Position numbers and translations under genes: made by a program
Source: Minisyncoccota bacterium
Lineage (GTDB): Bacteria; Patescibacteriota; Microgenomatia; Levybacterales; UBA12049
Direction of reading: 5' to 3'
Assembly: GCA_025449795.1 (NCBI GenBank)
Contig: JANWIQ010000053.1
Coordinates: forward strand, 1 to 37,457
Length of the DNA stretch: 37,457 bases
Shown: in pieces, positions 1,876 through 32,084 of the stretch
How the letters are laid out: each line of letters opens with the position of its first letter
Numbering within the stretch: position 1 is the first letter of the stretch
The notes under the pieces: generated by a model
What the model was told of the DNA's origin: nothing
Databases searched by the model: none
Seen by the model: only the letters and a program-made list of their open reading frames with translations

Positions 1876-2724
1876 ATGCAAAAGAATAATGGCCATAAGG
1901 TTAGACATAGTTCCTTTATTGATCTCTCAGATTATGCTAGGCCAATTGCTGTCTGGATAGCATTACAATTAAAAACTACACGTATACAAGTCTATCAAAT
2001 AACACTACTCCATTTTTTTCTAATGGTTATTGCAGCAGCATTAATTGCAGTAGGTGGATTATCCAATATTCTAATTGCCTCTCTTCTTATTCTATTAAAA
2101 AACATTTTCGACGCTGTTGATGGTTCGCTTGCTAGAATTCGCAATCGACCTTCAAGGGTGGGAAGATTTTTGGATAGCAATCTTGATTTCGTAGGGAATT
2201 TATTTCTGTTTTTATCCGTTACGTACGTCCCACTATGGATACGTGTCTTTGGTTTTTTGAGTTTTGTCATTCAAGGGAGTTTTTTTAATTTCTATTATAT
2301 ACTTTTTCGTAATACCAACCATGGAGATACAACAAGTAAAGTTAACGAAGACGATCAAAGTAATTACAGTTATGATAATCGTTTTATTTTAAAGATTTTA
2401 TATTTCTTTTATAAAATCTTTTATAAATGGCAAGATGCATTTGTTTTAATTGCGGATAGAGTTATAGGAAAAAGGGGAAGAACGATACCTGCTGTATTTG
2501 TTTCCTTTTTGAGTGTTAATGGCTTGGGATTTCAATATCTAATTTTTATCTTACTATTGTCGTTGCACCAACAAATAATACTTTTTCTCTGGTTTACTAT
2601 ATTTATGAATATCTATTTAGTAATACTGTTAGCGTATTTTAGATTTTTTATACGATCCTACAGCCAATGCAGGAGAGGCAAAGAATATAGCAAAGTCTCG
2701 AAAGAGTACATCCAGCACATTTAG
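1876..2724 (+). CDS. CDP-alcohol phosphatidyltransferase-family membrane protein
   Basis: 282 aa with multiple hydrophobic helices. Full signature DAVDGSLARIRNRPSRVGRFLDSNLD (D-G-x2-A-R-x8-G-x3-D-x3-D). The ATG directly abuts the upstream stop. The non-hydrophobic C-terminal tail probably reads into the adjacent gene remnant. Confidence 0.8.
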   Translation: MQKNNGHKVRHSSFIDLSDYARPIAVWIALQLKTTRIQVYQITLLHFFLMVIAAALIAVGGLSNILIASLLILLKNIFDAVDGSLARIRNRPSRVGRFLDSNLDFVGNLFLFLSVTYVPLWIRVFGFLSFVIQGSFFNFYYILFRNTNHGDTTSKVNEDDQSNYSYDNRFILKILYFFYKIFYKWQDAFVLIADRVIGKRGRTIPAVFVSFLSVNGLGFQYLIFILLLSLHQQIILFLWFTIFMNIYLVILLAYFRFFIRSYSQCRRGKEYSKVSKEYIQHI

Positions 2725-2737
2725 ATTTGCCGCAATT

Positions 2738-2970
2738 ATGGAACATTTGGTTAAAGCAAGAGCTCATGAAAACCAATATTTCTTTGTCGCAGTCGATAGA
2801 ACAGGCTCAGACCCAAATACTTCTTACTATGGTACAAATATTATTGCCAACCCATATGCTGAGGATGTAGCAAAGCACGAAGGCATATATAGATATGCAG
2901 AAATAACCAAAGATGATATAGTTACCTTGCATAAATTCTTACCTCTGGATGGCAGTTTCAAGAAAGAATA
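2738..2970 (+). pseudogene. C-terminal fragment of a carbon-nitrogen hydrolase (nitrilase superfamily) gene
   Basis: VKARAHENQYFFVAVDRTGSDPNTSYYGTNIIANPYAEDV...YAEITKDDIVTLHKFLP matches only the last ~80 aa of nitrilase-family enzymes (RARAxENQ block). No N-terminal Glu-Lys-Cys catalytic part is present upstream. Confidence 0.6.
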
Positions 2971-10752: not shown

Positions 10753-12291
10753 CTATATCTCCATTGGGTGCTCCATCTCAATATCCTTTGCAGTTGCAAA
10801 ATCCCTTTTGCTTTCTTTGACAAAAAGTGCTGCCAATCCCCCAATAATCATAAAGAAAATTGCCCAGTGGAAGACGGTTGCATAGGCATTGATATTTGCT
10901 TTTGTCGCCATGAGCGCAAAAATTTCTCCAAGCAGTTGTGGAGATGTCGTATGAATGGTTGAGTATTTTTGAATTTGCAAGAGGTTTGCGGTAACGCTAT
11001 TTGACAACACTGTTGCAAAAATTGCCGTCCCAAATGCGCCCGCAATATTTCTCGCAAGCGCAAGGACCGAGGACGCAATGCCTACCTCGTGAAGAGGGAC
11101 AGTATTGGTGGCAGCCTGGGTAAGAGGTGCCAGGCCAATACCAAGCCCAAATGCCATAATAAAAAGCCGCCAGATAATATCCCACTCAGTCCAACGAATA
11201 TCTATGCCAGAGAAAAGATAAAAGGCAAATGCTGCAGTAAGCATGCCTGCTGCCGTAAGAAAACGTGGCGGCATTTTGGTGGATAGCCGTGCTCCAATTT
11301 GTGCTGCTATGGCAATAGCAAATGCCATAGGAATAAAGAGAAGCCCTGTTTTGGTAACAGAATACCCCAAATATGTCTGGGCAAAAAGAGGAATAAGAAA
11401 AATTCCCCCAATCATGCCCATGAAAGACAAAAAAGAAGTAATAATAGAGGCAGTAAAGGTAGCATTTTTGAAAAATTTCAAATCCACAACCGGTTCTTTC
11501 TGTCTTTGTTCTACCAAAATAAATAAGACAAATGTTGCGATAGAGACAATATAAGACAGGATACTTTTTCCATCTATCCAGCCCCAGCTTTGTCCCTGAT
11601 CGAGGACAAGCACCATACTTCCAAGGGCAATACCCAAGAGTACAGAGCCAAGGACATCGAAATTCTTCAGGCCTCTAATTTTTTTCACTGGCTCCTCGAT
11701 ATATTTAAAAGCCAAAAACGTCCCAATAGCCCCAAGTGGTACATTCACATAAAATACCGAGCGCCATCCAAAGGTATCAATAAGTGGGCCTCCTAAGAGT
11801 GGACCAAATACCGCGGCTGCAGCAAAGACTGCAGACCATATGCCCATTGCCTGTGCTCTTTTGCCTTTGTCCTCAAAGGTAAAGGCAATGATAGAGAGTG
11901 CAATCGGATAATCGATGGAGACAATAATTGCCTGCAGGACACGAAATACCAAAAGAGAAGATAAATTAAAAGAAAAGCCGGCAAGTACAGAGGCAATGGT
12001 AAAGCCGACAATCCCCCAAATATAGAGAATTTTTCTTCCCATCATATCTCCCAATTTGCCAAATACCGGGACAAAAATTGCATTTGCAATAATGTAGGCA
12101 GTGGAAATCCAGCTTGCTTGAGTAACGGTAATACCAAAGTCGATAATAATTTTAGGAAGTGCCAAATTTACAATGGTCCCATCCAGTCTTCCGAGAAAAG
12201 ACCCTAGCATAAGGGTTGCAAGGATAATCCATTCGTGGGACTGAAAGCCTTTTTGAGAAGTGGAAGTAGGAGAAGTAGTTGTTTTCTTCAT
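10753..12291 (-). CDS. MFS transporter, DHA2 (EmrB/QacA-type, 14-TMS) drug:H+ antiporter
   Basis: 512 aa. LDGTIVNLALPKI, GKLGDMMGRK and WRSVFYVNVPLG are DHA2 hallmarks. About 14 hydrophobic segments. Confidence 0.9.
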   Translation of the reverse strand: MKKTTTSPTSTSQKGFQSHEWIILATLMLGSFLGRLDGTIVNLALPKIIIDFGITVTQASWISTAYIIANAIFVPVFGKLGDMMGRKILYIWGIVGFTIASVLAGFSFNLSSLLVFRVLQAIIVSIDYPIALSIIAFTFEDKGKRAQAMGIWSAVFAAAAVFGPLLGGPLIDTFGWRSVFYVNVPLGAIGTFLAFKYIEEPVKKIRGLKNFDVLGSVLLGIALGSMVLVLDQGQSWGWIDGKSILSYIVSIATFVLFILVEQRQKEPVVDLKFFKNATFTASIITSFLSFMGMIGGIFLIPLFAQTYLGYSVTKTGLLFIPMAFAIAIAAQIGARLSTKMPPRFLTAAGMLTAAFAFYLFSGIDIRWTEWDIIWRLFIMAFGLGIGLAPLTQAATNTVPLHEVGIASSVLALARNIAGAFGTAIFATVLSNSVTANLLQIQKYSTIHTTSPQLLGEIFALMATKANINAYATVFHWAIFFMIIGGLAALFVKESKRDFATAKDIEMEHPMEI

Positions 12292-12300
12292 ATAATTCCT

Positions 12301-12394
12301 GGGTCCTGCCGCTCGTAAAACTCGCAGTGCTTACTCCCTGCGCTATACAGCTTGTGGTCGTTGCGCCCCTGTTAGCATTTTACTCGCGTCACCC
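12301..12394 (-). repeat. Divergent (94-nt) member of the structured element family found at 19333 and 21642
   Basis: It shares both termini with the other copies: GGGTCCTGCC at the gene-proximal end and ACTCGCG..CACCC at the distal end. It has its own internal hairpin (CGCAG-GGAGUAAGCA-CUGCG in gene sense). It ends 9 nt upstream of the MFS ATG. Confidence 0.5.
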
Positions 12395-12445
12395 ATCAAT
12401 CTATTAACCCGTTATTCCTAAATCTTAAATCATAATTCCTACTTC

Positions 12446-13084
12446 TTATTTGGTATTGGTGAAGATGGTCATCTTGGCAGACATGCCTTGTTTTATTTGC
12501 GGATACGTACTGCTGTTAAAGGTTGCGTAGACAACAAATTGTTGAGTAGGACGCTCCGAAGAGATGGAAAATGTCGCTTGGGTTGTTTTGGCAGCAGGGC
12601 TAATTTCATCCACATACCCCCAAAATGTTTGTCCAGGGAGTGCATCCACGGTAAAAGAAACTACTTGGCCAAGAGCTATATCACTGAGCCCTTTATTTTC
12701 ATCGATGGTGCCGGCAATTCTCGTATTTGCAGGATTAATAAGTTGGGCAACTGGATTTTGGCTACTCACAGTACTTCCTATTTGGTTATTTGCCATCACC
12801 ACAGTGCCACTCACCGGTGCAGGAATTGTCTGTCCGTCAACAATTGCGACCGTATCTCCTTTTTTGACAACTTCCCCTTCATAGACATCAAGCTCTTGTA
12901 AAGTGCCAGGATTGGTCGGAGAAAGGGAGCTTACCGGACTTTGCACCAGAGAATCGTCGATAAAGACTCTGCCCATGTCCAACTCTATAAAGATAATTCC
13001 TCCTACTGCAAGAATAAGGATAAGTAATCCAATAAGTACTCGTACTATTTTTGGATTTTTTATGTGTGAGAATAATTTTTTCAT
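12446..13084 (-). CDS. HlyD-family membrane fusion protein (short form)
   Basis: 212 aa. N-terminal TM (VRVLIGLLILILAVGGIIFI) and a lipoyl-like hairpin (VVKKGDTVAIVDG). Overlaps the upstream MFP gene by 4 nt. Confidence 0.75.
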   Translation of the reverse strand: MKKLFSHIKNPKIVRVLIGLLILILAVGGIIFIELDMGRVFIDDSLVQSPVSSLSPTNPGTLQELDVYEGEVVKKGDTVAIVDGQTIPAPVSGTVVMANNQIGSTVSSQNPVAQLINPANTRIAGTIDENKGLSDIALGQVVSFTVDALPGQTFWGYVDEISPAAKTTQATFSISSERPTQQFVVYATFNSSTYPQIKQGMSAKMTIFTNTK

Positions 13085-16359: not shown

Positions 16360-17577
16360 TTACGCTTTATGAAGAAAAACCACTTGCAGGATTTTTTGGG
16401 CGATTTCTTTTTTGGACGCATAAGGAATATGCGAATATTTTCCGTCAGGAAAAACAATATATACCTCATTGCTATCTGCAGCAAAACCGCTTTCTTTTTT
16501 CCCCACATCATTGGCAATAATAGCATCTGCACGTGCTTCTTTTAGTTTTCGTAGCGCATGTTGGACAAGCTCTTTTTCCCTCATGCTATATTCTGCCTTA
16601 AAGCCAAAAAGATGGATATTTGGATTTATTTTTTTAATGAAAGCAATAAGTTTTTCTTGCGGAGATAATACGAGCGTTATTTCTTTGTTGCTTTCTAATT
16701 TTCCTTTGTGATAATTTGTTACTTGAAAATCCCCTACTGCTGTAGTATGGAAAATATAATCAAAATTTTTCACTTGTTCTTGTAATAGCGTCCGTAAGTC
16801 TTCTGGACTTTCAAAGACATATTCACGAACAGGAGAGAAAGGGGTTACTGCTGTATTTGACCGAAGAAGTACTACGTCTGCTCCCTGCAAAAAAGCTTCT
16901 TCTGCCAAAGCCCGTCCCATTTTTCCAGAACTTCTGTTGGTGATATAGCGCACGTCATCAATTTTTTCTTTTGTCGCGCCCGCAGTAACCAAAATCTTTT
17001 TTCCTGCGAGACTATTTTTATTTGCAAGCACTTCTTCAATTTCTTCCAGAATGGTTGGGATGTTTTCCAGCTTTCCTTTTCCTTCATCCCCACAAGCCAA
17101 CATGCCGCTTGTTGGTTCGACAATCGTGTAGTGATAGGTGCGAAGAAGAGAAAGATTGTGTTGCGTGATTGGGTTGGTCCACATATTGGTATTCATTGCC
17201 GGACAAAGAATGACCGGTGCTTTTGTCGCAAGAATACTGGTAGTCAAAAAATTGTCGGCAATGCCATAGGCAAGTTTGGCAATAGTATTTGCAGTTGCCG
17301 GGACAACAACAAATACATCTGCCATTTTGGCAAGAGAGATATGGTCTACTACTCTGCTTTCCAAAATCTGCTTGTAGTCAAAGTCTTTGGGAAAAAGATC
17401 AACAGATACCGTATGTCCTGTTATCTTTTCAAATTCTTCTACCGGGATCATCTGTGCGGCTTGTGGAGTCATCGCCGCATAGACGTCGTATTTTTTCTCT
17501 TTAAGAAGTGTGATAAGTGTAATAGCCTTAAATGCGGCAATACTGCTCGTGATGCCAATAACAATTGTCTTTTTCAT
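16360..17577 (-). CDS. coaBC: Bifunctional phosphopantothenoylcysteine decarboxylase / phosphopantothenate-cysteine ligase
   Basis: 405 aa. N-terminal flavoprotein domain (KKTIVIGITSSIAAFKAITLITLL...PAMNTNMW) and C-terminal DFP domain (ILVTAGATKEKIDDVRYITNRSSGKMG). Confidence 0.92.
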   Translation of the reverse strand: MKKTIVIGITSSIAAFKAITLITLLKEKKYDVYAAMTPQAAQMIPVEEFEKITGHTVSVDLFPKDFDYKQILESRVVDHISLAKMADVFVVVPATANTIAKLAYGIADNFLTTSILATKAPVILCPAMNTNMWTNPITQHNLSLLRTYHYTIVEPTSGMLACGDEGKGKLENIPTILEEIEEVLANKNSLAGKKILVTAGATKEKIDDVRYITNRSSGKMGRALAEEAFLQGADVVLLRSNTAVTPFSPVREYVFESPEDLRTLLQEQVKNFDYIFHTTAVGDFQVTNYHKGKLESNKEITLVLSPQEKLIAFIKKINPNIHLFGFKAEYSMREKELVQHALRKLKEARADAIIANDVGKKESGFAADSNEVYIVFPDGKYSHIPYASKKEIAQKILQVVFLHKA

Positions 17578-17583
17578 GCTCAG

Positions 17584-17592
17584 ATTATACCA
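17584..17592 (-). promoter_or_regulatory. Extended -10 box (TGGTATAAT) 6 nt upstream of the coaBC ATG
   Basis: Minus strand reads TGGTATAAT-CTGAGC-ATG. No Shine-Dalgarno sequence fits in the 6-nt gap. Confidence 0.4.
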
Positions 17593-17629
17593 GAAAAGTC
17601 AGTAGAAACGAGCTTATCGATCTACTGAC
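17591..17629 (-). terminator. Rho-independent terminator after the efflux operon
   Basis: Minus strand: GUCAGUAGA - 14-nt loop - UCUACUGAC (9-bp stem) followed by UUUUCUGG. It lies 26 nt downstream of the stop of the 145-aa gene. Confidence 0.6.
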
Positions 17630-17654
17630 CTTCTGAATTCATCCGAATATCTGT

Positions 17655-18092
17655 TTACTGTGTCGGTGTACCCGATGGTCTTGGACGGAACATTTGTACT
17701 GGATTAATTTGAATGTTTTGTGCCGTGACAGATCCATCAGAATTTGTTGTACCAAATACAGCTACCTCTGTTCCTGTAGTCAAGTCAGAAGAAGTTGCTG
17801 TACTAGATTTTACTATTCTCGTGCTTCCAGAGTAATTTACAATTTTACTGCTGCCGTCTGGAAGTTGGACGGTAACGCTATTGGTGTCCGTACTGATAAT
17901 TTTCCCAACCGTAGTACCTGCACCATTTCTGCCACCGCCAAATCTTCCGAAGCCCCCTTGTCCTGCAAATTGGGCAAAGCCGGATCTTGCTTGGGATTGT
18001 TGATATTTTTCTCCGCCAAAAAATGCAGCACCCCCAACAATTATGGCAACAAGAATAGTAATAATAAGAGAGTTTTTATTCATACTGTTCAC
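17655..18092 (-). CDS. Small membrane-anchored or secreted protein (DUF5666-like beta-rich domain, recalled from memory)
   Basis: 145 aa. N-terminal TM (SLIITILVAIIVGGAAFFGG), then a G/F/R-rich linker. The next stretch, GKIISTDTNSVTVQLPDGSSKIV...TRIV....ATSSDLTTGTEVAVFGTTNSDGSVTAQNIQI, looks beta-rich. Starts 5 nt after the permease gene. Confidence 0.6.
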   Translation of the reverse strand: MNSMNKNSLIITILVAIIVGGAAFFGGEKYQQSQARSGFAQFAGQGGFGRFGGGRNGAGTTVGKIISTDTNSVTVQLPDGSSKIVNYSGSTRIVKSSTATSSDLTTGTEVAVFGTTNSDGSVTAQNIQINPVQMFRPRPSGTPTQ

Positions 18093-19324: not shown

Positions 19325-19332
19325 ATATCTTC

Positions 19333-19445
19333 GGGGTCCTGCCAATCGCAACTTTTCCCTTCGGTACCCTCAGGGCAAGCCAGTGCTTGCGACCCTTTTT
19401 ATCCTGAGCAAAGTCGAAGGAGAAAAAACTCGCGCCTGTTACCCC
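19333..19445 (-). repeat. 113-nt structured repeat element, copy A, between the ABC ATPase stop and the permease start
   Basis: About 94% identical to 21642-21755 (6 substitutions and 1 indel by hand alignment). It folds as an interrupted rod (see findings). It ends 8 nt upstream of the permease ATG. Confidence 0.8.
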
Positions 19446-19446
19446 T

Positions 19447-20172
19447 TTAATCTGTTGTATGTAGCCGTTTTGCTTTTTTCTGTTTTTTATTTCTATCATC
19501 TGCAATAATTTTTCCGTCTTTCACATGGATGATTCGTTTGCTATGCTCTGCAATGTCTGGCTCGTGAGTGATCATGACAATCGTATGTCCTCTGTTGTTA
19601 ATTTCCTGAAAAATTGCCATAATTTCTTCTGCCTGAGCAGAGGCAATGTTGCCAGTTGGCTCGTCTGCAAGAAGAAGAGCGGGGTTCATGACAAGTGCAC
19701 GGGCTATAGCAACGCGCTGTTGCTGACCGCCTGAAATTTGATTGGACGAGTGAGAGAGTCTTTTTCCCAGTCCCACCATTTCCAAATACTGGCGCGCTTT
19801 TTCTTCTCTTTCTTTTTCCGGCATTCCCCCATAGCGCATAGGGAGCATGACGTTTTGCAGAAGGGTAATGCGAGGCAATAGGTTAAAGGCCTGGAAAATA
19901 AACCCAATTTTTTTATTCCGAATATCTGCAAGTTCGTCATCGGAGAGTTTTTCCACATTTTGCCCGTCCAAGATGTAGGTACCGTTGGTTGGTGTATCTA
20001 ATGCTCCTAAAATATGCATGAGCGTTGACTTTCCACTTCCCGATGGTCCCATGATGGCAACAAATTCACCCTTACTGATAGAAAATGAAACATCGTCCAA
20101 GGCAACGGTTTGCATGGCTTCTGTTTGGTAGATTTTTGAAATATGTGAGATATCAATAGTTATGCTATTCAT
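19447..20172 (-). CDS. ABC transporter ATP-binding protein (MacB/LolD subfamily)
   Basis: Start trimmed to MNSITIDISHISKIY (ATG at 20172). Walker A GPSGSGKST, signature LSGGQQQRVAIARAL, Walker B LLLADEPT, H-loop ITHE. Confidence 0.92.
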   Translation of the reverse strand: MNSITIDISHISKIYQTEAMQTVALDDVSFSISKGEFVAIMGPSGSGKSTLMHILGALDTPTNGTYILDGQNVEKLSDDELADIRNKKIGFIFQAFNLLPRITLLQNVMLPMRYGGMPEKEREEKARQYLEMVGLGKRLSHSSNQISGGQQQRVAIARALVMNPALLLADEPTGNIASAQAEEIMAIFQEINNRGHTIVMITHEPDIAEHSKRIIHVKDGKIIADDRNKKQKKAKRLHTTD

Positions 20173-21631: not shown

Positions 21632-21641
21632 AATTTTTTTC

Positions 21642-21755
21642 GGGGTCCTGCCAACCGCAACTTTTTCCCTTCGGTACACCCAGGGCAAGCCAGTGCTTGC
21701 GACCCTTTTTATCCTGAGCAAAGTCGAAGGAGAAAAAACTCGTGCCTGTCATCCC
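21642..21755 (-). repeat. 114-nt structured repeat element, copy B, between the histidine kinase and the MFP start
   Basis: Near-identical to 19333-19445. It ends 10 nt upstream of the MFP ATG. Confidence 0.8.
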
Positions 21756-21809
21756 TTCTCGTATCCTCTCTATGCACTATAGTTTTACCATCTGAAAAAG
21801 TGCTGAAAG

Positions 21810-31314: not shown

Positions 31315-31339
31315 AAACGTACACCTCGGGAGTGTACTT
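31315..31339 (+). repeat. Left hairpin repeat flanking the Y1 transposase gene
   Basis: AAACGTACACCTCGGGAGTGTACTT. It contains the hairpin GTACAC-CTCGGGA-GTGTAC. Its reverse complement recurs at 32060-32084 (24/25 identical). Confidence 0.8.
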
Positions 31340-31372
31340 GACAGAGAGAAAAAGTAAGGCAATAATGGTTGT

Positions 31373-32059
31373 ATGCCAGGTAGATTGGTTCCTTTGGTGA
31401 AAGGTGAAATGTATCATGTATTTAACCGGGGCATAAATAAGCAGATCATCTTTACCTCACAAAGAGATTACCGGAGAGTACTTGAAGTACTTGAATTTTA
31501 TTCCTATAAGAAGCCTCGCCTAAGTTACTCCAAATATTTACTATTGCATCCTGAAAGCCAACAATTATTTTTTGAAGAATTACGAGAAAGTGGCGAAAAG
31601 ATAGTTGAAATAATTTCTTACTGTTTTATGCCTAACCATTTTCATTTGCAGCTTCGTCAATTAGATGAAAATGGTATATCTATATTTTTAGGTAACCTAC
31701 AGAATAGTTACACGCGCTACTTTAATACGAAGTATCACAAAATTGGACCACTACTTCAAGGAAGATTTAAGGCAATTTTAATTGAAAATATGTTTCAGTT
31801 ACTTCATGTTTCTCGATATATTCATCTCAATCCTTACTCCTCAGGTATTTGCCAAACAGCGGAAGATCTTTTGAAGTATCCTTGGTCTTCCTTGGGGGAA
31901 TATATTGCAGATAGCAATACTACCTCGCTCTGCACAAAAAGGGATGTTCTTTCAGAATTTAATGCATCAAGTTATAAGGATTTTGTTTTAGATCAAGCAG
32001 ACTATCAAAGAGAATTAGACCAAATAAAACACGTGTTGCTTGAAGATGAAGATTTTTGA
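31373..32059 (+). CDS. Y1 (HUH) transposase, IS200-like / RAYT family
   Basis: 228 aa. YHVFNRGINKQIIF, HUH motif CFMPNHFHLQL, catalytic-Tyr block VSRYIHLNPYSSGI, and YPWSSLGEY. This is the typical Y1_Tnp/RAYT pattern. Confidence 0.85.
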   Translation: MPGRLVPLVKGEMYHVFNRGINKQIIFTSQRDYRRVLEVLEFYSYKKPRLSYSKYLLLHPESQQLFFEELRESGEKIVEIISYCFMPNHFHLQLRQLDENGISIFLGNLQNSYTRYFNTKYHKIGPLLQGRFKAILIENMFQLLHVSRYIHLNPYSSGICQTAEDLLKYPWSSLGEYIADSNTTSLCTKRDVLSEFNASSYKDFVLDQADYQRELDQIKHVLLEDEDF

Positions 32060-32084
32060 AAGTACACTCCCGAGGTGTATGTTT
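32060..32084 (-). repeat. Right hairpin repeat (inverted copy) flanking the Y1 transposase gene
   Basis: AAGTACACTCCCGAGGTGTATGTTT is the reverse complement of 31315-31339 with one mismatch. Confidence 0.8.

What the first reader, a model, noticed from the sequence alone, without database searches (positions are those of the whole stretch)
12301..12394. Third, divergent member of the structured-element family, again just upstream of an efflux-pump start codon
Between the short MFP gene and the DHA2 MFS gene lies a 94-nt element. In gene sense it begins GGGUGACGCGAG and ends GCGGCAGGACCC, the same termini as the copies at 19333 and 21642. Those copies read GGGGUAACAGGCGCGAG...UUGGCAGGACCCC. 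The interior differs but is also self-complementary: CGCGAGUAAAA pairs with UUUUACGAGCG with 2 mismatches, and there is an apical CGCAG-GGAGUAAGCA-CUGCG hairpin. It ends 9 nt before the ATG, and an AGGA lies in those 9 nt. Conserved ends with a diverged but still structured interior, and the same position and orientation in a second, unrelated efflux operon, argue that this is more than a local duplication.
Basis: seen in the sequence. Interest (0 to 1): 0.6.

Follow-up and report, generated by a model that had tools for sequence, protein, structure and literature searches.

The report
Mobile hairpin repeat, not pump riboswitch
The 94-nt structured element in front of the MFS efflux gene is one copy of a dispersed, hairpin-forming DNA repeat. 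The repeat also sits in frame inside essential genes, in either orientation, in tiny-genome (CPR) bacteria and several other phyla, so it is selfish or mobile DNA like the Rickettsia palindromic elements, not a pump-specific RNA switch.

Summary
Window 12301-12394 (-) carries a rod-like element that shares its termini (GGGUGAC...GGCAGGACCC) with the copies at 19331 and 21640. It ends 9 nt before the MFS start codon.

It is not an efflux leader.
- A covariance model finds 13-14 copies in this 852-kb genome. Hits occur in 14 of 61 relatives and 24 of 401 genomes of the phylum, and also in MAGs labelled Omnitrophota, Thermoanaerobaculia, Planctomycetia and Gammaproteobacteria.
- About 45% of the copies examined lie in frame inside unrelated housekeeping genes (folD, radA, dnaX, infB, carB, ychF, map, tkt, ksgA, uvrD), in both orientations.
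- Six orthologous MFP-MFS operons lack the element at this junction.
- Neighbouring genes are co-oriented at 20 loci and opposed at 20.
- Orientation instead follows the chromosome strand. It is uniform in 13 of 14 multi-copy contigs, and the element's sense strand is the C-rich strand in 45 of 50 loci.
- Helices covary strongly, while the loops and an AGG bulge are conserved.
- No Rfam family matches. Copy-rich genomes lack both Y1 transposase and reverse transcriptase, and no consistent target duplication is seen.

Best reading: an RPE-like palindromic mobile repeat that acts as single-stranded DNA at replication forks. The mobilising agent is unknown.

The parts
12298..12397 (-). The element copy under study. 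The covariance-model hit includes 2-3 flanking nt on each side.
   Evidence: R2 scores it 50.5 bits with E = 2e-9.
12301..12312 (-). The 3' terminal block GCGGCAGGACCC. It holds the 3' strand of stem P1 (ACCC, 12304-12301) and the family-invariant unpaired AGG bulge (12307-12305).
   Evidence: Read. Columns 166-168 and 169-173 of alignment A4 are invariant or nearly so.
12383..12394 (-). The 5' terminal block GGGUGACGCGAG. It holds the 5' strand of P1 (GGGU), the G-C / A.G / C-G step, and the tandem G.A/A.G at the start of stem P2.
   Evidence: Position 9 (A or G) covaries with position 164 (G or A) across copies.
12313..12382 (-). The variable interior. It contains stem P2 (UAAAA/UUUUA), stem CAG/CUG, the conserved internal loop GGGCGCAA / UAAGCA, and the lineage-specific tip GCU-GUAU-AGC.
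   Evidence: Other own-genome copies of this type are at C63:9020-9117, C71:10437-10536 and C59:17807-17907.
12398..12445 (-). AT-rich leader of degenerate 7-nt tandem repeats (GGAAUUA UGAUUUA AGAUUUA GGAAUAA ...). It lies between the MFP stop codon (12448-12446) and the rod. Such leaders precede many intergenic copies. Whether the leader belongs to the element is unknown.
   Evidence: Periodicity score is 0.455 upstream against 0.376 downstream (p = 4e-4) and 0.365 in distant windows (p = 2e-6).
12289..12300 (-). AGGAAUUAU followed by the ATG of the MFS gene. The Shine-Dalgarno sequence lies outside the rod. The 9-mer AGGAAUUAU also occurs at 12440-12432.
19331..19447 (-). Sister copy (type A interior) in the spacer between the MacB-type ATPase and permease genes.
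21640..21757 (-). Sister copy (type A interior) in the spacer between the histidine kinase gene and the HlyD-type adaptor gene.
10753..12291 (-). MFS (MFS_1) transporter gene downstream of the element. It is host context, not part of the repeat.
12446..13084 (-). Short HlyD-type adaptor gene upstream of the element. It is host context.

Best explanation
The 94-nt element is one copy of a dispersed, non-coding, imperfectly palindromic (rod-forming) DNA repeat family. The family behaves like the Rickettsia palindromic elements. It has spread to many unrelated sites, both intergenic and, in frame and free of stop codons, inside housekeeping genes.

Shown here: the copy at 12301-12394 is an insertion, specific to this lineage, into the short spacer between the adaptor gene and the MFS gene. 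It leaves the Shine-Dalgarno sequence and the ATG intact.

Inferred mechanism:
- The element acts as folded single-stranded DNA during replication. Its orientation is locked to the chromosome strand: the sense strand is on the C-rich strand, so its complement would lie in the lagging-strand template. Its orientation is not tied to transcription.
- Only copies that keep the rod, the AGG bulge and the conserved loops stay able to propagate. That would produce helices that covary around conserved unpaired motifs.
- Inside genes, only insertions in the one or two stop-free frames and in tolerant loops or linkers survive. They are most likely translated as Gly/Ala/Ser/Pro/Arg-rich surface loops.

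The mobilising activity is not identified. Copy-rich genomes lack both Y1 (HUH) transposases and reverse transcriptases.

Any effect on the efflux operon, such as a stable hairpin in the polycistronic mRNA, would be a by-product.
For: Family size and spread:
- 13 R1 hits in the own genome at E<=1 (the weakest, on C45, looks false) and one more copy on C3 found with R2.
- Hits in 14 of 61 relatives and 24 of 401 genomes sampled from the phylum.
- Model-confirmed copies in MAGs labelled Thermoanaerobaculia, Omnitrophota, Planctomycetia, Gammaproteobacteria, Acidobacteriota, Saccharibacteria, Daviesbacteria and Doudnabacteria.

In-frame copies in both orientations:
- 17 of the first 38 copies examined are spanned by long ORFs.
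- Pfam identifies the hosts as folD, radA, dnaX (three), IF-2 (two), carB, an amidohydrolase, ychF, map, transketolase, Wzy_C, GT1, a Mur ligase and DUF2298.
- In other phyla the hosts are ksgA (two copies), uvrD, tatD and a methyltransferase.

Empty sites:
- Six orthologous MFP-MFS operons (64-68% identical MFS) have nothing at the junction.
- FolD in nearly all 40 relatives lacks the ~37-residue insert.

Orientation:
- Neighbouring genes are co-oriented at 20 loci and opposed at 20.
- Orientation is uniform in 13 of 14 multi-copy contigs. 19 of 20 extra copies agree, binomial p about 2e-5.
- GC skew of the flanks is negative on the element's sense strand in 45 of 50 loci (p = 4e-9).
- After regression on gene orientation the intercept is -0.081 +/- 0.007.
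- All 10 own-genome contigs that carry copies show the same sign.

Structure: covariation statistics.

No Rfam family matches.
Against: - No transposase or other mobilising protein is identified. Y1_Tnp and RVT_1 do not track the element, and G030 and G010 (12 and 16 copies) lack both.
- There is no consistent direct target duplication.
- Terminal inverted repeats are only about 5+3 bp, unlike classical MITEs.
- Insertions at the same protein sites in different genera (dnaX three times, IF-2 twice, folD in the own genome and G016) could mean ancient vertical inheritance with maintained structure. That would hint at a function rather than pure selfishness.
- Translation of the intragenic copies is inferred, not shown.
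- GC skew as a proxy for replication direction is an assumption for these fragmented MAGs.
- In the own genome, 4 of about 9 intergenic copies end 7-11 nt before a co-oriented start codon. I attribute this to very short spacers, but I did not test it against a null.
Confidence: 0.82

Rival explanations
1. One reading: a cis-regulatory structured RNA (riboswitch or leader) that controls efflux-pump genes and is placed just 5' of their start codons.
For: - Three copies in this window are co-oriented with efflux genes and end 8-10 nt before their start codons.
- Loops are conserved and helices covary, as in real RNA families.
Against: - Only 3 of 13-14 copies in the genome are near efflux genes.
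- Two intergenic copies are antisense to both neighbours, and copies lie inside ORFs in both orientations.
- Six orthologous MFP-MFS junctions are empty.
- Orientation follows the DNA strand, not the genes.
- No Rfam family matches.
Confidence: 0.03
2. An exapted RNA hairpin. The repeat arrived as selfish DNA, but the copies inside operons now serve as intercistronic mRNA stabilisers, processing sites or translation modulators, as shown for some REP and ERIC elements. This reading does not exclude the main explanation.
For: - Four own-genome copies sit in tiny spacers within operons, co-oriented and 7-11 nt before the next start codon.
- The rod is stable (-30 to -46 kcal/mol).
- The unpaired AGGA at the 3' end resembles a Shine-Dalgarno sequence.
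Against: - The site is not conserved in relatives.
- The own Shine-Dalgarno sequence of the MFS gene lies outside the rod.
- No terminator or promoter signal is found at the element.
- The same AGG bulge is invariant in copies inside genes and in antisense copies, so it is not kept for translation.
Confidence: 0.12
3. A REP/REPIN-type element mobilised by a RAYT (Y1 HUH transposase), for example the RAYT-like gene at window 31374-32060.
For: - The genome has 7 Y1_Tnp hits.
- Hairpin repeats with orientation tied to replication are typical of single-strand HUH transposition.
- There is no direct target duplication.
Against: - The RAYT-like gene in the window is flanked by a different hairpin (GTACACCTCGGGAGTGTAC), which has only 4 copies in the genome.
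- Y1_Tnp is present in 9 of 14 genomes with the element and 21 of 47 without it.
- Y1_Tnp is absent from the copy-rich G030 (100% complete), G010 and G033.
- REPs are extragenic, while this family is often intragenic.
Confidence: 0.1
4. A retro-element (SINE-like) copied through RNA, possibly derived from a housekeeping RNA such as SRP RNA.
For: - The conservation pattern is RNA-like.
- G.U pairs outnumber A.C pairs 40 to 21 on the sense strand.
- From memory only, the termini and the CUCCCG...CGGGA block resemble the basal stem of E. coli 4.5S RNA.
- Rfam SRP models find no SRP RNA in six of these genomes.
Against: - RVT_1 is absent from the own genome, G010 and G030.
- The SRP covariance models do not hit the element.
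- There is no conserved GNRA/domain IV motif.
- Orientation follows the DNA strand.
- The resemblance to 4.5S RNA was not tested statistically.
Confidence: 0.03

Closest known systems
Rickettsia palindromic elements (RPE-1 to RPE-10; Ogata et al. 2000 and 2002, as summarised in PMC10969869)
   Same: - About 100-150-bp imperfect palindromes.
- Many dispersed copies in a small genome.
- About half are inserted in frame in unrelated housekeeping ORFs and apparently tolerated.
- No transposase is known.
   Different: - A different phylum, and in fact several phyla.
- No sequence relationship to RPEs was shown; I did not compare sequences.
- Orientation is locked to the chromosome strand.
- The conserved core and AGG bulge are shared across phyla.
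REP/REPIN elements with RAYT transposases, and IS200/IS605 single-strand transposition
   Same: - Hairpin-forming repeats.
- No direct target duplication.
- Orientation bias relative to replication.
- Compensatory changes in the stems.
   Different: - No linkage to a Y1 transposase.
- Copies occur inside genes.
- The rod is about 95-118 nt and has several conserved internal loops, rather than being a 20-40-nt REP or a REP doublet.
Classical bacterial MITEs (Correia, ERIC, BOX, RUP, QMITE; PMC10969869, PMC5896051)
   Same: - Short non-autonomous repeats.
- Sometimes intragenic, giving in-frame fusions.
- Co-transcribed with operons.
   Different: - Terminal inverted repeats of only about 5+3 bp.
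- No consistent direct target duplication.
- No parent IS element recognised.

Membership tests
Riboswitch or cis-regulatory 5' leader of efflux genes | Conserved position upstream of orthologous genes across species | tested here: not met
   Six orthologous MFP-MFS junctions lack the element. The best covariance-model hit there has E = 0.93.
Riboswitch or cis-regulatory 5' leader of efflux genes | Same orientation as the regulated gene, and association with one functional class of genes | tested here: not met
   Neighbouring genes are co-oriented at 20 loci and opposed at 20. The contexts are unrelated to one another.
Riboswitch or cis-regulatory 5' leader of efflux genes | Match to a curated RNA family | tested here: not met
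   No Rfam 15 match at the gathering threshold, and nothing relevant at E <= 10.
RPE-like in-frame palindromic repeat (a kind, not sequence membership) | Dispersed, multi-copy, imperfect palindrome of about 100 bp | tested here: met
RPE-like in-frame palindromic repeat (a kind, not sequence membership) | In-frame, stop-free copies inside unrelated protein-coding genes | tested here: met
   17 of 38 copies are spanned by long ORFs, with Pfam-identified hosts. FolD homologues lack the insert.
RPE-like in-frame palindromic repeat (a kind, not sequence membership) | Sequence homology to RPE-1 to RPE-10 of Rickettsia | not tested
   No RPE sequences were at hand. Given the phyla involved and the GC-rich consensus, homology is not expected.
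RPE-like in-frame palindromic repeat (a kind, not sequence membership) | The insert is retained in mRNA and protein | not testable with these tools
REP/REPIN-RAYT system | A cognate RAYT gene flanked by the same repeats and co-occurring with them | tested here: not met
   The RAYT-like gene in the window has a different hairpin. Y1_Tnp is absent from the copy-rich G030, G010 and G033.
REP/REPIN-RAYT system | Extragenic location | tested here: not met
   About 45% of copies are intragenic.
Classical MITE | Terminal inverted repeats of 10 bp or more and direct target-site duplications | tested here: not met
   The termini share only GGGGT plus G-N-C. Direct repeats of 8 nt or more flank 10% of copies against 2% in the null, with no fixed length or position.
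IS200/IS605-like single-strand DNA transposition (mechanism) | Strand-specific orientation relative to replication | tested here: met
   and uniform orientation within contigs. GC skew is used as a proxy for replication direction.
IS200/IS605-like single-strand DNA transposition (mechanism) | Presence of a TnpA (Y1) enzyme | tested here: not met
Retro-element or SINE | Reverse transcriptase present in genomes with recent copies | tested here: not met
   No RVT_1 hit in G000, G010 or G030.

The most novel reading that the evidence does not exclude
The family is a previously undescribed class of hairpin element that spans several phyla and needs no dedicated transposase or reverse transcriptase. 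On this reading it either propagates as folded single-stranded DNA at replication forks, for example by template switching or capture by host replication and repair enzymes, or it has been domesticated as a replication-polar DNA signal. This would account for four features: strand-locked orientation, lack of direct target duplications, occasional inverted outer stems built from host flank, and sequence-conserved loops shared between CPR bacteria, Omnitrophota and Acidobacteriota.
Probability: 0.2. Interest if true: 0.8.

Novelty: new variant of a known kind. Interest (0 to 1): 0.5.

Why it matters
For annotation, this element and its relatives should not be called riboswitches or leaders. The 30-40-residue Gly/Ala/Ser/Pro/Arg-rich inserts in CPR housekeeping proteins are repeat-derived.

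For biology, an RPE-like phenomenon was until now described essentially in Rickettsia. Here it appears in ultra-small-genome bacteria and in several other phyla. It has a conserved structured core and an orientation tied to the replication strand, and no recognisable mobilising enzyme.

This makes the long-open question of how such palindromic elements move testable. The family offers many independent copies, empty sites and a clear strand rule.

Tried and rejected
- Rfam at the gathering and E-value thresholds, on the window copies and on a canonical copy: nothing.
- Alternative genetic code. An in-frame TGA in atpC suggested code 25 or 4. No tRNA-UCA was found, and TGA acts as a stop in several genes, so table 11 was kept.
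- SRP-RNA origin. RF00169 and RF01854 hit neither the element nor anything else in six genomes. The resemblance to 4.5S RNA is from memory and was not tested.
- Similarity of the termini to Tn3-family inverted repeats (GGGGTC...). This was seen by eye and from memory only, and I did not pursue it.
- Association with Y1 transposase or reverse transcriptase: none.
- Direct target duplications: none consistent.
- Inverted outer stems made from flank. They are real in 5 of 71 copies but not general in this family.
- The idea that the hypervariable stem P2 is written at each insertion. I rejected it because P2 variants cluster with subfamilies defined by other differences in the same copies (G030). 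P2 is therefore simply the least sequence-constrained helix.
- Literature search for the terminal motifs as strings: only chance primer hits.
- Phage and plasmid collections: no match.
- IMG/VR viral contigs: only two weak hits driven by the termini.
- Peptide-region search of 5.8 billion proteins: only the query's own gene fragment and one RecJ of a Levyibacteriota MAG.
- Two oppositely oriented copies in G459, examined as a possible composite or autonomous unit. They bracket the RNase P RNA gene, not a transposase.

Full report
**1. The observation**

On the minus strand the sequence reads GAU-GGGUGACGCGAGUAAAAUGCUAACAGGGGCGCAACGACCACAAGCUGUAUAGCGCAGGGAGUAAGCACUGCGAGUUUUACGAGCGGCAGGACCC-AGGAAUUAU-AUG.
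- The rod spans 12394 to 12301. The next 9 nt contain AGGA, and the MFS gene starts at 12291.
- The copies at 19331-19446 and 21640-21756 have the same ends.
- On its own the fold is unremarkable (-30.3 kcal/mol, z = -1.67).

The genes around it are MarR, two HlyD-type adaptors and an MFS transporter. Further on lie a response regulator, a histidine kinase, a HlyD adaptor, an ABC ATPase and a MacB-type permease.

**2. It is a genome-wide family**

BLAST within the genome first found five near-identical "type A" copies. A motif scan then found divergent copies with the same termini and different interiors.

I built covariance model R1 from four copies whose interior resembles this one. It found 13 hits in the 852-kb, 74-contig genome at E<=1, of which the weakest, on C45, looks false. 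A second model found one more.

Contexts in the own genome:

| Context | Copies |
|---|---|
| Next to efflux genes | the 3 copies in this window |
| Between atpD and atpC | 1 |
| Between an HxlR gene and a tRNA | 1 |
| 44 nt before otsA (GT20) | 1 |
| At a contig end | 1 |
| On contig C3, with a canonical core | 1 |
| Antisense to both neighbours (ybeY/dnaX and serS/secA) | 2 |
| Inside long ORFs, in frame (folD sense, an integrase-like ORF sense, radA antisense) | 3 |

**3. Relatives and other phyla**

- R1 hits 14 of 61 relatives. Some are multi-copy: G010 has 16, G030 has 12, and G028 and G033 have 5 each.
- R2, built from 38 copies, hits 24 of 401 genomes sampled across the phylum, scattered over many families.
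- A pattern scan of GTDB species genomes followed by the model gave confirmed copies in MAGs labelled Thermoanaerobaculia, Omnitrophota, Planctomycetia, Gammaproteobacteria, Acidobacteriota, Solirubrobacterales, Saccharibacteria, Daviesbacteria and Doudnabacteria.
- The consensus is (G/A)A-GGGGUG(A/G)C-[P2]-GGAAGGG-CUCCCGACAG-CGCGCA-[lineage-specific tip]-GAGCA-CUGGCGGGAG-GGAAA-[P2']-G(G/A)C-AGG-ACCCC-GA.

**4. Copies inside genes**

- Of the first 38 copies, 17 are spanned by long ORFs: 7 in sense and 10-11 in antisense orientation.
- Pfam identifies the hosts as FolD, RadA, DnaX (three), IF-2 (two), CarB, an amidohydrolase, YchF, methionine aminopeptidase, transketolase, an O-antigen-ligase-like protein, GT1, a Mur-ligase/FolC-like protein and DUF2298.
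- Elsewhere the hosts are KsgA (two copies in one gene), UvrD, TatD and a methyltransferase.
- Sense copies are read as ..GVTRAG...GPR or RGDASGG...GPR. The third sense frame contains TGA.
- Antisense copies are always read as RGP(A/V)...(T)P. Only stop-free frames are seen.
- FolD of almost all 40 relatives aligns in two blocks that abut. The closest relative (G014, 64-67% identical) lacks about 37 residues exactly where the own copy sits, in the interdomain linker.
- G016 has a shortened copy (QGVTRAGDP...) at the same site.

**5. The junction studied here is empty elsewhere**

Six relatives have an orthologous MFS gene (64-68% identity) preceded by the same adaptor gene. Their spacers range from 0 to about 300 nt, and none contains the element. 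With filters off, the best model hit there has E = 0.93. Three of these genomes carry the family at other sites.

**6. Structure**

I drew 22 pairs by hand on the 38-copy alignment. Several of them were not in the model used to make the alignment.
- 87.9% of cells are paired, against 72.1% in shuffles.
- 139 cells have changes on both sides, against 46.
- The covariation score is 0.438, against 0.170.
- Structures slid by 1-3 columns give 34-47% paired.
- Invariant or nearly invariant features are the GGGGU/ACCCC stem, the 3-nt AGG bulge, a purine-purine pair that switches between A.G and G.A, and the loop sequences.
- Stem P2 is the most variable helix. Within G030 its variants go together with other subfamily-specific differences, so it is ordinary compensatory divergence.
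- On the sense strand, G.U pairs outnumber A.C pairs 40 to 21. In copies antisense to their host gene the ratio is still 10 to 2. The favoured strand is therefore the element's own, not that of the host mRNA.

**7. Orientation follows the chromosome, not the genes**

- Local genes are co-oriented with the element at 20 loci and opposed at 20.
- Within contigs that carry several copies, orientation is uniform in 13 of 14. 19 of 20 additional copies agree with the first, p about 2e-5.
- The 3 kb of flanking DNA has negative GC skew on the element's sense strand in 45 of 50 loci (mean -0.084, sign test p = 4e-9).
- After regression on local gene orientation the intercept is -0.081 +/- 0.007.
- All ten own-genome contigs that carry copies have the same sign.
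- Under the usual rule that the leading strand is G-rich, the complement of the element lies in the lagging-strand template. This last step is an inference.

**8. What moves it**

This is not resolved.
- Y1_Tnp (PF01797) is present in 9 of 14 genomes with the element and 21 of 47 without it. It is absent from G030 (100% complete), G010 and G033.
- The RAYT-like gene in this window is bracketed by a different hairpin that has four copies in the genome.
- RVT_1 is absent from the own genome, G010 and G030.
- There is no consistent direct target duplication.
- An inverted outer stem made of flanking sequence occurs in 5 of 71 copies, against 0.8% expected, and in one further case next to rnpB.
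- Intergenic copies, especially in this genome, are preceded by AT-rich tandem repeats of 7-9 nt.
- The family was not found in the phage or plasmid collections.

**9. Comparison with what is known**

- The closest described phenomenon is the Rickettsia palindromic elements, as summarised in PMC10969869. That review does not mention Patescibacteria or CPR bacteria.
- My literature searches found no description of this family.
- Earlier notes from this scan had reached a similar reading for the two type A copies and for look-alike repeats in other CPR genomes. I treated them as leads.
- I re-tested three of their claims on my own data: absence at orthologous sites, strand-locked orientation, and inverted flanks.

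**10. Verdict**

The element is a member of an RPE-like, hairpin-forming repeat family with strand-locked orientation, spread across several phyla, and its mobilising agent is unknown.

Shown:
- family membership
- covariation
- in-frame copies inside genes
- empty orthologous sites
- orientation statistics
- lack of linkage to Y1 transposase or reverse transcriptase

Inferred:
- a single-stranded DNA mechanism at replication forks
- translation of the intragenic copies
- neutrality of this copy for the pump operon

Noticed in passing
G000 contig C59, about 17393-17800 (locus L016), just downstream of the copy at C59:17807-17907: atpC has an in-frame TGA at about codon 31, at the position of the hydrophobic residue in the GE-x-G-I-L-P motif. 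Aragorn finds no tRNA with a UCA anticodon among the 28 assembled tRNAs. TGA serves as a stop codon for folD, an adaptor gene and ybeY.
   Followed up: partly
window 31315-32084: A RAYT/IS200-like Y1 gene (31374-32060) is bracketed by inverted copies of the hairpin GTACACCTCGGGAGTGTAC. That hairpin has only 4 copies in the genome, while the genome has 7 Y1_Tnp hits. It is unrelated in sequence to the family studied here.
   Followed up: partly
whole genomes G000, G030, G010, G033, G028, G014: Neither the Bacteria_small_SRP model (RF00169) nor the Bacteria_large_SRP model (RF01854) finds an SRP RNA in any of these six genomes. The control genomes do give hits. Either the SRP RNA of this lineage is very divergent or the pre-filter lost it.
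   Followed up: no
window 12398-12445, and the 5' flanks of copies on C63, C32, C71, C59 and C15: Intergenic copies are preceded by 3-6 degenerate AT-rich tandem repeats with a period of 7-9 nt. The repeat sequence differs from copy to copy. The periodicity is significantly above that of the 3' flanks and of distant windows.
   Followed up: partly
window 12432-12440 and 12292-12300: The 9-mer AGGAATTAT (Shine-Dalgarno region plus spacer) occurs twice in direct orientation. The two occurrences bracket the AT-rich leader plus the rod. This could be a footprint of the insertion event or a duplication of the original ribosome-binding site.
   Followed up: partly
L223 (G459:C2:1500-6500), about 2150-2232 (+) and 2740-2822 (-): Two copies in opposite orientation bracket the RNase P RNA gene. 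The upstream copy sits inside a 12-bp inverted outer stem (TTGGTGAAAAA...TTTTTCACCAA). This is the only multi-copy contig where the orientations are mixed.
   Followed up: partly
L122:6825-6939 and L139:3280-3394: Copies in a Thermoanaerobaculia MAG and a Solirubrobacterales (Actinomycetota) MAG are 94% identical and share about 25 nt of conserved 5' extension, while the more distant flanks are unrelated. This points to recent horizontal transfer or a mis-binned contig.
   Followed up: no
L108:411-1487: A ksgA/rsmA gene in an Omnitrophica MAG carries two in-frame sense copies. Each is embedded in an 11-13-bp inverted duplication of flanking coding sequence.
   Followed up: partly
FolD interdomain linker in relatives (L053, L055, L059, L061): The linker where the own genome carries the element varies from 0 to about 37 residues among genera. 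It often starts with a (Q/E/P)GV... motif, which looks like the decayed remains of older insertions at the same site.
   Followed up: no
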